Shown here piece after piece: positions 3,001 to 6,000 of a DNA stretch of 20,028 bases (its first letter is position 1; each line of letters opens with the position of its first letter). Source of the DNA: a virus (Duplodnaviria; Heunggongvirae; Uroviricota; Caudoviricetes). The position numbers were made by a program. Location of the stretch: the IMG/VR virus record IMGVR_UViG_2551306526_000001, one strand, 5' to 3'.

Positions 3001-6000
3001 GCTGGTTAACGCGTAAGGCGCGTCGCCAGGGTAACCGCAATGCGTCGAATGTTTATCAGCTTAACGTTGCGAAGCTTCAGGCAGCGGCATTTTCTCAACT
3101 GTCAGATTCTGACCCGTCAAAATCTGACGCATCAAAATCTGACGCATCAAAATCTGACCCGTCAAAATTTGATGCGTCGAAATCTGGCAAAAAAGCGGGT
3201 TTTCACCCGTCAGAATCTGGCGGGGATCCGTCAGTAAAATCAAAACATGATCCGTCAGATAAAAAACCTTCTCGTCCGGACGCTTCGCAACCGGACACGC
3301 AGACGGCTGAACAGGATTTTTTAACTCGCCATCCTGATGCGGTTGTATTCAGCCCTAAAAAGCGCCAGTGGGGGACGCAGGATGATTTGACCTGCGCACA
3401 GTGGCTCTGGAAAAAAATCATCGCCCTGTACGAGCAGGCTGCCGAATGTGACGGCGAGGTGGTTCGTCCCAAAGAACCGAACTGGACAGCCTGGGCAAAC
3501 GAAATTCGCCTGATGTGTGTACAGGATGGGCGTACACACAAACAAATCTGCGAGATGTACAGCCGTGTCAGCCGCGATCCGTTCTGGTGCCGTAACGTGC
3601 TCAGCCCGTCGAAGCTGCGGGAAAAATGGGATGAGCTTTCCCTGCGCTTATCGCCGTCCGTCAGCACGTACACCGAACAACGCGAGGACCCGTACTTCGA
3701 AGCCAGTTACGACAACGTGGACTACAGCCAGATCCCGGCAGGATTCAGAGGGTGATCATGAGTCTGTTAAATGACGTTCAGAAATTCATTGAAGCCCATC
3801 CGGGGTGTACTTCCGGAGACATTGCGGATGCTTTTGCAGGTTACTCACGGCAGCGCGTTCTGCAGTCTGCAAGCAAGTTACGTCAGAGTGGGCGTGTGGC
3901 TCACCGTTGTGAAGGAGATACACGCAGACATTTCCCGCGCCTGACTGAGAGAGCGCAGGAACCGGAACCACAACCAGTTCGATAAACCAGACCTGTGCGC
4001 AATTTCTATGTCGGCACTAACGATCCACGGGTGATTTTGTGCCTGACCCGCCAGGCTGAAGAACTGGAGTCCAGGGGCTTATACCGTCGTGCTGCAACCG
4101 TGTGGATGGCGGCATTCCGTGAAAGCCACTCCCAGCCAGAACGAAACAATTTTCTGGCACGTCGTGAGCTGTGTTTACGGAAAAGCAGCAAGCGCGCTGT
4201 ATCGAGTGATGAGTGGTATCTGTCAGGGAATTACGTGGGGGCGTAATGACGACGTTAACTCAATGCCAGCAGCAGGTGCTGGATATGCTGATTTCTTATC
4301 AGAAAGAGCGTGGCTTTCCGCCAACCAATCAGGAGGTGGCAACCATGCTGGGATACCGTTCAGTGAATGCAGCGGTAGAGCATCTTCGTGCACTGGAGAA
4401 AAAAGGCGTCATCACGATAAAGCGTGGCGTGGCCCGGGGGATAACGCTTCATACCGCGGTGAAGGACGACGACAGCGAGGCGGTCGGGATTATCCGCGCA
4501 CTGCTTGCCGGTGAGGAAAACGCAAAGCTGCGTGCAACCCACTGGTTACATGAGAGGGGCCTGAAAGTATGAAGCTGATCCTGCCTTTTCCGCCCAGCGT
4601 GAACACGTACTGGCGACACCCCAACAAAGGGGCGTTTGCTGGTAAGAGCCTGATAAGCGCGGCGGGGCGAAAATTCCAGAGCGCAGCGTGCGCAGCAATA
4701 GTTGAGCAGTTACGTCGTCTGCCGAAACCAACGTCGGCACCTGCTTCAGTGGAGATCGTGTTGTTTCCTCCGGATAACCGGATCCGCGATCTGGACAACT
4801 ATAACAAGGCGCTGTTTGACGCCCTGACCCACGCGGGTGTGTGGGAAGACGACAGCCAAGTGAAAAGAATGTTGGTGGAGTGGGGACCGGTTATCCCGGA
4901 AGGGAAGGTCGAGATCACTATCAGTAAGTACGAGAAACCGGCGGGTGCAGCCGCCTGATTAAGAGGAGAAACGAAGTATGAATAATCTGATGGTCATTGA
5001 TGGTATTGAAGTTCGTCGTGATGCTTATGGGCGTTACAGCCTGAACGATCTGCACAGGGCTGCCGGTTCTCTGGATAAGCATAAGCCTGCATTCTGGCTC
5101 CGCAATGAGCAAACTGAACGTTTAATAAGCGAGTTGCAGATTTGCAACTCGGTCAATATAGAGCCAGTTAACGTTATTCGTGCGCGGAAATAACCAGGGG
5201 ACGTATGTCTGCAAAGAACGTGGTGTATGCCTATGCAATGTGGATCAGCCCGTCATTCCATCTGAAGGTGATCCGTACTTTCGACATGGTAACCAGCGCA
5301 CCGGAAAAATTATCCGGACAGGCTGCTGACAAGATGCAGGCTGGTGTGATTCTGCTGGACTTTATGCGCCGGGAATTAAACCTGTCTAACTCTTCAGTGC
5401 TTGGTGCCTGTCAGAAACTCCAGGAGGCTGTTGGTTTACCGAATCTGGCACCGCGCTATGCCATTGATGCTCCTGCTGACGCGCCTGATGGCTCAAGCCG
5501 CCCCACGCTGTCACTGAGTGCACTGCTGAAGCAGTATGGTATCCGCCTGACAGCTAATCAGGCATATCACCAGATGGTGAAGCTGGGGATCGTCGAGCAG
5601 CGCGAACGATACAGCCGTACCGCGATTAACAACATCAAAAAATTCTGGTCGCTGACAGCGAAAGGCTGCATGTTCGGCAAGAATATCACCAGTCCCGCAA
5701 ATCCGCGCGAGACGCAGCCGCATTTCTTCGAATCCCGATTCCCTGAGCTGTTAAAGCTGCTCGATACCGTTCATTGAGGTGACCGTGAGAGCACTACTGA
5801 CCCCTGAAGTTGCCCCGCGTATGGGGATCGTATTGTTCAGGCCAGGTTCAGAGTTGATGCCCCTGTTTATGCAGGGGCGTGTCCTGCTGGAGCCTGAGCC
5901 GGAACGTTATTCATCTTTCGCCAGTGGTGCAGTTCCGGCGGCATCACAACCGCTGGCGGATGATCCTGCCGTTCGGGCCGTGTTCCGCAATGAGGCAGTG

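What the first reader, a model, noticed from the sequence alone, without database searches (positions are those of the whole stretch)
3995..4246. PerC/Pch-like regulator encoded in the prophage early region
The 83-aa ORF contains AEELESRGLYRRAATVWM, resembling the conserved core of PerC-family activators. In pathogenic E. coli the prophage-encoded Pch homologues of this family activate LEE type III secretion genes. If genuine, this prophage carries a potential host-virulence or global regulator.
Basis: partly seen in the sequence, partly recalled or inferred. Interest (0 to 1): 0.5.

Follow-up and report, generated by a model that had tools for sequence, protein, structure and literature searches.

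The report
Broken yfdN (PerC-family) prophage gene
The 83-codon reading frame does carry a PerC-type domain, but it is only the back half of the common prophage gene yfdN, cut in two by a premature stop codon in a decaying prophage, so it is an ordinary, probably dead gene and not a new virulence regulator.

Summary
The ORF (3995..4246, +, GTG, 83 aa) and its AEELESRGLYRRAATVWM motif are real. It passes the Pfam PerC model (41 bits against a cutoff of 22.6; E 2.3e-10). It is not a gene of its own. The 77-aa ORF upstream (3752..3985) is in the same frame, separated only by TAA at 3983-3985. In related phages (SfIV, mEp460), in E. coli K-12 and in about half of complete E. coli genomes the two form one 162-164-codon gene, yfdN, annotated 'PerC family transcriptional regulator'. 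The nearest intact allele differs at the stop only by G->T at 3983 (Glu->TAA). Diverged relatives (24-47% identity) keep the same two-domain build: a winged-helix domain at the N-terminus and a three-helix PerC-like domain at the C-terminus. The stop lies in the linker between them. GTG 3995 has no ribosome-binding site. One sister strain has a second stop inside the 83-aa frame. The prophage, in avian pathogenic E. coli chi7122, also has a frameshifted KilA-N gene and large deletions in its late genes. The domain is 32-40% identical to PerC, Pch and PchE over about 50-58 residues and lacks the C-terminal tail they share. My verdict is a nonsense-disrupted yfdN, most likely a pseudogene. Family membership holds at domain level, but a Pch-like virulence role has no support.

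The parts
3752..4246 (+). Whole yfdN-type gene (164 codons counted from GTG 3752 as PGAP annotates it, 162 from ATG 3758), here interrupted by one in-frame stop: a pseudogene or split gene.
   Evidence: tblastn of the intact YfdN of E. coli strain 1190 (164 aa) aligns over 164/164 residues to 3752..4243 at 99.4% identity with exactly one stop. SfIV gp42 and mEp460 gp44 are single CDSs over the same DNA. K-12 YfdN is 96% identical to the intact allele.
3752..3985 (+). N-terminal fragment (77 aa from GTG 3752, 75 aa from ATG 3758): the predicted winged-helix DNA-binding domain plus part of the linker, ending at the premature stop. It keeps the native ribosome-binding site.
   Evidence: Matches phrog_23071 and positions 14-88 of the 172-position phrog_1324 profile. 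A profile of the family gives only weak PDB matches (E 0.001-0.07), mostly to winged-helix domains such as BlaI/MecI, MarR and PapI-like KS71A. The AF2 model of a full-length relative shows three helices plus a beta-hairpin wing at pLDDT 92-98, and its Foldseek hits are predominantly MarR/SlyA/MecI/ArsR-type proteins. The Shine-Dalgarno duplex for ATG 3758 is -6.3 kcal/mol.
3983..3985 (+). Premature stop codon TAA (Glu78 -> stop in PGAP numbering), caused by G->T at 3983. It lies in the low-confidence linker between the two domains.
   Evidence: Strain 1190 has GAA here. It differs from window 3740-4260 only at 3983 and 4159. SfIV and mEp460 also have GAA. The same TAA allele occurs in at least 22 public contigs from independent assemblies. 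The aligned region in the model has pLDDT 61.
3995..4246 (+). The reported 83-aa ORF: the C-terminal PerC-like three-helix domain plus the YfdN-type tail (EWYLSGNYVGA). Its stop overlaps the ATG of the next gene (TAATG).

Best explanation
The 83-aa ORF is the downstream remnant of a yfdN-type prophage gene. Intact YfdN proteins have two domains. The N-terminal 60 or so residues form a winged-helix, presumably DNA-binding, domain. A flexible linker follows. The C-terminus is a three-helix TPR-like module, which is what the Pfam PerC model recognises, ending in a short conserved W-x-L-(A/S)-G-x-(Y/F)-x-G tail. The gene sits directly after the O-like replication gene in the early-right operon of many lambdoid phages. 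It would therefore be transcribed from the early-right promoter (pR) only after the cI-like repressor is inactivated. In this window a single G->T change at 3983 turned Glu78, in the linker, into TAA. Translation from the native start now yields only a 75-77-aa winged-helix fragment. The PerC-like module has no ribosome-binding site and could be made only by inefficient re-initiation at GTG 3995, 9 nt after the stop. The most likely state is therefore a pseudogene in a defective, decaying prophage of avian pathogenic E. coli chi7122, with little or no PerC-domain protein made. Shown here: the split, the mutation, the conserved two-domain architecture, the family membership, the missing Shine-Dalgarno sequence, and the other lesions in the prophage. 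Inferred: that the winged helix binds DNA; that the PerC-like module is a protein-contact or self-association module, by analogy with Pch, which relieves H-NS silencing, and with ANR proteins, which bind AraC-type regulators and H-NS; and that the remnant is not expressed.
For: Same frame, one stop: ORFs 3752..3985 and 3995..4246 share a frame, and intact YfdN aligns across both with a single stop. The nearest intact allele differs at 3983 by G->T, and SfIV and mEp460 carry one CDS of 162-164 codons. About half of complete E. coli genomes (2674 of 5426) carry the gene, and it is annotated as an intact 'yfdN: PerC family transcriptional regulator' in every row listed. The two-domain architecture is conserved down to 24-47% identity in 20 representatives of 138-161 aa, and all 31 aligned members hit Pfam PerC. 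Structure models show a winged helix, a linker and three helices. GTG 3995 has no Shine-Dalgarno sequence (+0.3 kcal/mol), against -6.3 to -9.1 for neighbouring true starts, and there is no promoter-like site on the + strand between 3500 and 4400. Signs of decay: sister locus L010 has a second stop inside the 83-aa frame (C4133T). The adjacent KilA-N gene is frameshifted. The late region holds a terminase without its ATPase domain, a partial portal and a T-J fusion. Relatives carrying the same stop show still larger deletions (L009, L010).
Against: The stop falls exactly in the inter-domain linker, and an in-frame GTG follows 9 nt later, so termination-reinitiation could still give a stand-alone PerC-like domain. 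The 83-aa frame is still open in 7 of the 8 loci that carry the stop. Those strains are so closely related, with 0-1 differences in 489 nt, that this says little either way. No expression data are available. The function of intact YfdN is itself unknown, so loss of function cannot be shown.
Confidence: 0.75

Rival explanations
1. Functional gene fission. The nonsense mutation split YfdN into two working polypeptides: a free winged-helix protein, and a free PerC-like three-helix protein translated by termination-reinitiation at GTG 3995. The second would then have the stand-alone format of PerC, Pch or ANR proteins and could act as a small protein-binding regulator when the prophage early operon is on.
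For: The stop is in the low-confidence linker between two independently folding domains. An in-frame GTG lies 9 nt downstream of the stop. The 83-aa piece alone is predicted to fold confidently, pLDDT 94-96 over the helices. The allele persists in at least 22 contigs from several assemblies. Natural stand-alone PerC-domain proteins of 62-95 aa exist.
Against: GTG 3995 has no Shine-Dalgarno sequence, +0.3 kcal/mol. One sister strain has already gained a second stop in this frame. Neighbouring genes and the late region are decaying. Of the four other annotated complete or long contigs, three left the 83-aa ORF uncalled. The carriers are near-identical, so the allele's persistence is not evidence of selection.
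Confidence: 0.17
2. One reading: a genuine Pch/PerC-like activator that switches on LEE type III secretion or other host virulence promoters.
For: A significant Pfam PerC hit and a shared core motif, LE-x-(K/R)-G-(L/F)-Y-R-R-A-A-x-x-W ... R-x-x-C-L-R-K, with PerC, Pch and PchE. The literature calls YfdN 'the K12 unique PerC homologue', and one group deleted it from a ler reporter strain as a precaution (PMC5931665).
Against: Identity is only 32-40% over 50-58 residues. The C-terminal tail conserved among PerC, Pch and PchE is missing (47% identity over 87 aa and 40% over 90 aa among those three). The native protein has two domains. pch genes sit elsewhere in their prophages: the group-1 pch examined lies between the lysis and terminase genes, and pchE lies in a different type of element. 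Even PchD and PchE do not activate ler. The copy here is truncated and lacks a ribosome-binding site. The host is an avian extraintestinal strain.
Confidence: 0.04
3. The stop codon is a sequencing or assembly error and the gene is intact in the living strain.
For: None of the 5426 complete RefSeq E. coli genomes matches the window 100% over 3740-4260. The best hits are 99.6% identical and read GAA.
Against: The identical TAA allele was recovered from at least 22 contigs in independent assemblies and a raw-read assembly: GCA_000307205.1, GCA_949767625.1, GCA_903975495.1, GCA_029594635.1, GCA_003337065.1, GCA_903977045.1, GCA_024733625.1 and SRR31284229.
Confidence: 0.02

Closest known systems
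YfdN of E. coli K-12 (b2357, cryptic prophage CPS-53) and its phage orthologues (SfIV gp42, mEp460 gp44, SfV orf40, genes in Stx2c/Stx2a phages)
   Same: The intact allele is 96% identical to K-12 YfdN over 164 aa. The DNA is 97% identical to the phage copies. The position is the same, directly after the O-like replication gene (yfdO in K-12) and before the dam / LexA-DNA-binding-domain / rusA genes. The PGAP name is the same, 'PerC family transcriptional regulator'.
   Different: The window copy carries Glu78->TAA, so the gene is split into 77-aa and 83-aa frames. YfdN itself has no demonstrated function and is listed as 'uncharacterized protein YfdN'. The only reports found are overexpression-screen hits.
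PerC of EPEC (pMAR2/EAF plasmid, 89 aa) and group-1 Pch (PchA/B/C) of EHEC O157 (104 aa)
   Same: Same Pfam family (PF06069). Shared core over the first two helices and the start of the third: A-x-x-LE-x-(K/R)-G-(L/F)-YRRAA-x-x-W ... R-x-x-C-(L/I)-x-K. All are carried on mobile elements.
   Different: Identity is 32% over 56 aa (PerC) and 40% over 50 aa (Pch), whereas PerC and Pch are 47% identical over 87 aa, including a C-terminal tail (IKQ-x-V ... MG ... FR-x-YK) that the window protein lacks. PerC and Pch are stand-alone proteins, while the YfdN type has an N-terminal winged helix and a W-Y-L-S-G-N-Y-V-G tail. The group-1 pch examined lies in a late or moron position between lysis and terminase genes, not in the early operon. 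Pch activates LEE1 by relieving H-NS/StpA/Hha silencing (PMC4764244). Nothing of the kind is known for YfdN.
PchE (ECs_1588, 90 aa, prophage Sp7 of O157 Sakai)
   Same: 38% identity over 58 aa in the same core. It shows that PerC-family proteins need not activate LEE: PchE does not activate ler and instead alters curli, flagella and adhesion (PMC5931665, PMC7369912).
   Different: PchE is a stand-alone protein and retains the PerC/Pch-type C-terminal tail, 40% identity to group-1 Pch over all 90 aa.
ANR (AraC negative regulator) family, e.g. Aar of EAEC (NCBIfam NF033650)
   Same: Small three-helix proteins. The window domain gives a sub-threshold match, 26.5 bits, E 4.3e-6, over 47 of 54 model positions. 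ANR proteins act by protein-protein contact with AraC-type activators and H-NS (PMC4983702, PMC5570504), which fits the TPR-like fold predicted here.
   Different: The score is below the curated cutoff of 32, so it is not a member. ANR proteins are stand-alone proteins under 10 kDa, encoded next to or co-regulated with AraC-family genes, not phage early genes fused to a winged helix.
BlaI/MecI-type repressors (architectural analogy only)
   Same: An N-terminal winged helix followed by a C-terminal three-helix module. Weak sequence and fold matches of the N-terminal half to BlaI/MecI, and 2 of 31 family members hit Pfam Penicillinase_R.
   Different: There is no detectable homology in the C-terminal module, and the E-values are marginal (1e-3 to 5e-2). 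I use this only to suggest that the PerC-like module could serve in dimerisation.

Membership tests
Pfam PerC (PF06069) | Whole-protein score at or above the gathering threshold (22.6 bits) | tested here: met
   41 bits, E 2.3e-10, residues 19-73. All 31 aligned relatives also match.
Pfam PerC (PF06069) | Match over the whole 90-position model, including the C-terminal third | tested here: not met
   Only model positions 5-59 of 90 are matched. BLASTP alignments to PerC, Pch and PchE stop after 50-58 residues.
PerC / group-1 Pch functional class (LEE1/ler activators) | Stand-alone protein of about 90-104 aa | tested here: not met
   The native gene encodes 162-164 aa in two domains. The 83-aa frame exists only because of a nonsense mutation.
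PerC / group-1 Pch functional class (LEE1/ler activators) | Conserved C-terminal tail shared by PerC, PchA-C and PchE | tested here: not met
   PerC vs Pch is 47% identical over 87 aa and Pch vs PchE 40% over 90 aa. The window protein has a different tail, EWYLSGNYVGA.
PerC / group-1 Pch functional class (LEE1/ler activators) | Activates the LEE1 (ler) promoter by relieving H-NS-type silencing | not testable with these tools
   This needs a reporter assay. The literature shows that PchD and PchE fail this test although they are in the family (PMC5931665). No data exist for YfdN.
YfdN orthologue group (lambdoid early-region gene) | High identity to K-12 YfdN over the full length | tested here: met
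   99.4% to strain 1190 YfdN over 164 aligned positions. That allele is 96% identical to K-12 YfdN.
YfdN orthologue group (lambdoid early-region gene) | Synteny: immediately downstream of the O-like replication gene and upstream of the LexA-DNA-binding-domain and rusA genes | tested here: met
   Window order is 2799..3755 O-like, 3752..4246 yfdN, 4246..4572 LexA-DNA-binding-domain protein, 4569..4958 RusA. The order is the same in SfIV, mEp460 and strain 1190, and yfdO-yfdN are adjacent in K-12.
YfdN orthologue group (lambdoid early-region gene) | Uninterrupted reading frame | tested here: not met
   TAA at 3983-3985. It is therefore a disrupted allele, not an intact member.
ANR family (NCBIfam NF033650) | Score at or above the curated cutoff (32 bits) | tested here: not met
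   26.5 bits, E 4.3e-6.
Winged-helix DNA-binding domain (N-terminal half) | Three helices plus a beta-hairpin wing, with similarity to known winged-helix regulators | tested here: inconclusive
   The AF2 model of relative P0074 shows the fold at pLDDT 92-98. Foldseek and PDB-profile hits are predominantly winged-helix proteins, but only at E 1e-3 to 5e-2. There is no Pfam hit for the window fragment itself. DNA binding was not tested.

The most novel reading that the evidence does not exclude
A natural gene fission in progress. The nonsense mutation in the linker frees the PerC-like three-helix module from its winged-helix partner, and termination-reinitiation at GTG 3995 yields a stand-alone small regulator in the Pch/ANR format. 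This would illustrate how stand-alone PerC/Pch-type virulence regulators could have arisen from two-domain phage early proteins of the YfdN type.
Probability: 0.07. Interest if true: 0.4.

Novelty: already known. Interest (0 to 1): 0.13.

Why it matters
It matters little for this locus. yfdN-type genes are present in about half of complete E. coli genomes and are already annotated as PerC-family, and this copy is a broken allele in a defective prophage. There are two modest practical lessons. First, a Pfam PerC hit should not be read as 'Pch-like LEE activator'. The YfdN subtype is a distinct two-domain protein (winged helix plus a TPR-like three-helix module) with no demonstrated function. 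Second, ORF-level reading of prophage DNA can mistake the downstream half of a nonsense-split gene for a small regulator gene. The open biological question is what intact YfdN does in the early operon of lambdoid phages. That question concerns the family, not this window.

Tried and rejected
1. The first word-indexed homologue search with the 83-aa ORF returned mostly partial or garbled E. coli entries and no diverse relatives. I replaced it with the exhaustive representative search.

2. An exact-pattern scan of one-genome-per-species contigs for the nonsense allele found nothing. The exact-protein look-up then found at least 22 contigs and identified the source.

I modelled a full-length relative, P0074, and the 83-aa piece separately instead.

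4. A PDB sequence search with the 83-aa ORF gave no meaningful hit. No solved structure of a PerC or ANR relative was found by sequence.

5. P0002, an 87-aa 'partial' protein starting exactly at the Glu78 codon, looked like a possible independent fission. It turned out to sit at contig ends, so it is an assembly break. Rejected.

6. I considered minus-strand ORFs (4006..4191, 4017..4160) and an RNA element under the finding. Rfam found nothing there at gathering thresholds, ARAGORN found no tRNA, and there is no promoter-like site on the + strand in 3500-4400.

7. Porter et al. 2005, the key paper on PerC-like proteins, is not held in the library, so which Pch residues are required for activity could not be checked.

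8. No PADLOC (anti-phage defence) model matches the ORF.
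Full report
**Observation.** The window contains the reported ORF at 3995..4246 on the + strand. It has a GTG start, encodes 83 aa, and its stop TAA at 4244-4246 overlaps the ATG of the next gene. The motif AEELESRGLYRRAATVWM is at residues 21-38. NCBIfam's ANR model scores 26.5 bits, below its cutoff of 32. PHROGs places the ORF in phrog_2608, 'transcriptional activator' (2.5e-52).

**What it really is.**
- The ORF directly upstream, 3752..3985 (77 aa), is in the same reading frame and is separated from the 83-aa ORF only by TAA at 3983-3985.
- The 172-position PHROG profile phrog_1324 matches the upstream ORF with its positions 14-88 and the reported ORF with positions 88-166. 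This is what a single gene cut in two would look like.
- In phages SfIV (gp42, 164 aa) and mEp460 (gp44, 162 aa) the same DNA, 97% identical, is one CDS annotated 'PerC family transcriptional regulator'.
- A megablast against 5426 complete E. coli genomes finds the gene in 2674 of them. In every listed row it is annotated as intact 'yfdN: PerC family transcriptional regulator' or 'PerC family transcriptional regulator'.
- The nearest allele (strain 1190) differs from window 3740-4260 at only two positions. One is 3983, T in the window and G in the relative, which turns GAA (Glu78) into TAA.
- Intact YfdN aligns to 3752..4243 over all 164 residues at 99.4% identity with exactly one stop. That allele is 96% identical to K-12 YfdN (b2357, cryptic prophage CPS-53).
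- The 'PerC/Pch-like 83-aa regulator' is therefore the C-terminal half of a nonsense-disrupted yfdN.

**The stop is real and inherited.** An exact-protein look-up of the truncated 75-aa product found at least 22 contigs. The first, HE962388.1 (GCA_000307205.1), is identical to the window over the 9985 nt available. It is the chromosome of avian pathogenic E. coli chi7122 (PMC5570496). Seven further loci from independent assemblies carry the same TAA. One of them (L010) has gained a second stop inside the 83-aa frame (C4133T, Gln->TAG). L009 and L010 also have large deletions that join the neighbouring gene region to tail-gene remnants.

The window's own prophage is damaged elsewhere too. The KilA-N gene at 4978..5777 is frameshifted. 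The late region holds a large-terminase ORF with only the nuclease domain, a partial portal gene and a T-J tail-gene fusion. The window maps onto roughly 34-37 kb of related intact prophages in several pieces.

**Architecture of the intact family.** An exhaustive HMMER search of 1.84 billion representatives with the 83-aa piece gave only 57 hits. The diverged ones (37-58% identity) are mostly 138-161 aa long with the match at about residues 80-150. A few are stand-alone proteins of 62-95 aa. The alignment of 20 such proteins with the repaired window sequence (24-47% identity) shows two conserved blocks:
- an N-terminal block, M-S-x-x-x-x-V-x-x-F-I-x-x-N-P-G-x-x-x-x-x-I-A-x-A-F;
- a C-terminal block, A-x-x-L-E-x-x-G-L-Y-x-R-A-A-T-x-W-L-x-A-F ... 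E-R ... R-x-x-C-L ... L-A-G-x-Y-x-G.

All 31 members of the C-terminal alignment hit Pfam PerC.

AlphaFold2 on relative P0074 (mean pLDDT 88.5) gives a winged helix: three helices plus a beta-hairpin wing at pLDDT 92-98. This is followed by a helix running into a low-confidence linker (pLDDT 61 at residues 71-80), three helices at 87-139, and a weak C-terminal hairpin. Foldseek hits are weak (E 3e-3 to 5e-2) and are predominantly winged-helix DNA-binding proteins of the SlyA/MarR, MecI/BlaI and ArsR types. A family profile against PDB sequences gives similarly weak matches, mostly to winged-helix domains.

**Can the remnant be expressed?**
- There is no promoter-like site on the + strand between 3500 and 4400, so the locus is inside the early-right operon.
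- The native start has a good Shine-Dalgarno sequence: ATG 3758, -6.3 kcal/mol.
- Neighbouring genes score -7.6 to -9.1.
- GTG 3995 has none, at +0.3 kcal/mol.
- The only route to the PerC-like module is re-initiation 9 nt after the stop. From general knowledge of bacterial translation this is possible but inefficient without a Shine-Dalgarno sequence. This step is inference, not measured.

**Comparison with PerC and Pch.** I fetched three reference proteins: PerC from the EPEC plasmid pMAR2 (89 aa), a group-1 Pch from O157:H7 (104 aa) and PchE from Sakai (90 aa).

| Comparison | Identity | Length aligned |
|---|---|---|
| Window domain vs PerC | 32% | 56 aa |
| Window domain vs group-1 Pch | 40% | 50 aa |
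| Window domain vs PchE | 38% | 58 aa |
| PerC vs group-1 Pch | 47% | 87 aa |
| Group-1 Pch vs PchE | 40% | 90 aa |

PerC, Pch and PchE align with each other over essentially their full lengths, including a C-terminal tail that the YfdN type lacks. In line with this, the Pfam match covers only model positions 5-59 of 90.

The genomic position also differs. The group-1 pch examined lies between lysis and terminase genes, and pchE lies in a different type of element.

Functionally, group-1 Pch activates ler, while PchD and PchE do not (PMC5931665). Pch acts by relieving H-NS/StpA/Hha silencing at LEE1 (PMC4764244). YfdN is mentioned only as 'the K12 unique PerC homologue', deleted as a precaution from a reporter strain. 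It is otherwise uncharacterised. It appears in an overexpression screen for glycogen content and within a multi-gene fragment that caused filamentation.

**Mechanism, as far as it can be committed to.** Intact YfdN is most likely a phage early-operon DNA-binding protein. Its winged helix would provide DNA contact. Its PerC-like three-helix module would provide protein-protein contact: self-association as in BlaI/MecI-type architectures, or contact with nucleoid or AraC-type regulators as in Pch and ANR proteins (PMC4983702, PMC5570504). This is inference from fold and family. In this window the module is cut off from both its DNA-binding domain and its ribosome-binding site. The most likely outcome is a 75-77-aa winged-helix fragment and no meaningful amount of the PerC-like module, that is, a pseudogene (confidence about 0.75). 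The main rival is a functional split with re-initiation (about 0.17). A true Pch-like virulence activator (about 0.04) and a sequencing error (about 0.02) are unlikely.

**Novelty and score.** The family, its name and its distribution are already in public annotation. This copy is a disrupted allele in a defective prophage of a strain that, to my knowledge (not tested here), does not carry the LEE. Interest is low. The only mildly novel reading not excluded is a gene fission that produces a stand-alone PerC-like protein.

Noticed in passing
window 4978..5777 (+): The KilA-N (antirepressor-like) gene next door is also broken. It is a single 265-aa CDS in strain 1190 and in sister locus L007. 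In the window it is split into 71-aa and 190-aa ORFs by a frameshift near 5190-5205.
   Followed up: partly
window 4246..4572 (+): A 108-aa protein made of the LexA DNA-binding domain only (Pfam LexA_DNA_bind 69 bits; aligns to LexA positions 1-91 of 203), without the S24 self-cleavage domain. It is conserved next to yfdN in many lambdoid phages. It could act as a non-cleavable protein that binds SOS boxes, but its role is unknown.
   Followed up: no
window 3108..3186 (+): A 15-bp tandem repeat (consensus TCTGACCCGTCAAAA, 5.3 copies, 85% matches) inside the O-like replication gene, encoding the SDASK/SDPSK repeats. By analogy with lambda, whose origin iterons lie inside gene O, this may be the prophage origin.
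   Followed up: no
window 11561..16765 (+): The late region is a remnant. It holds a DUF1441 small-terminase-like ORF, a 405-aa large-terminase ORF that matches only the gpA nuclease domain, a 264-aa partial lambda-type portal, a 650-aa ORF that fuses tail protein T motifs to gpJ domains, and a tail-fibre assembly gene. Related intact prophages span about 34-37 kb where the window has about 17 kb.
   Followed up: partly
window 16869..19073 (-) and 19750..20028 (+): A cargo cluster at the prophage end. A 329-aa DUF2971 protein matches the PADLOC candidate defence family PDC-S31 (9e-21). It is followed by a 400-aa DUF4236 protein, and in sister loci by a DUF6602 gene. This may be an anti-phage defence island.
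   Followed up: partly
window 8313..9365 (+): A 350-aa N6/N4 DNA methylase (Pfam N6_N4_Mtase, 2e-42) lies between the Q antiterminator gene and the holin and lysozyme genes, the slot that stx genes occupy in Stx phages. Upstream at 7242..7688 (-) is a 148-aa orphan ORF with no family hit.
   Followed up: no
window 16524..16722 (+): A strong Rfam hit to IS009 (RF02111), 225 bits against a gathering score of 117, full length. It lies inside the tail-fibre assembly gene region.
   Followed up: no
L010 1286..1774 (equivalent to window 4133): A sister strain (GCA_003337065.1) that carries the same yfdN stop has a second nonsense mutation in the 83-aa frame (C->T, Gln->TAG). It also has a deletion that fuses the LexA-DNA-binding-domain gene to a tail gene, which shows continuing decay of this prophage lineage.
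   Followed up: yes
L002 2047..2700 (mEp460); also most phage hits: In most related phages a gene of about 650 bp, annotated Dam methyltransferase or PAPS reductase, is inserted between yfdN and the LexA-DNA-binding-domain gene. The window and SfIV lack it, which marks a mosaic boundary directly at the yfdN stop codon.
   Followed up: no
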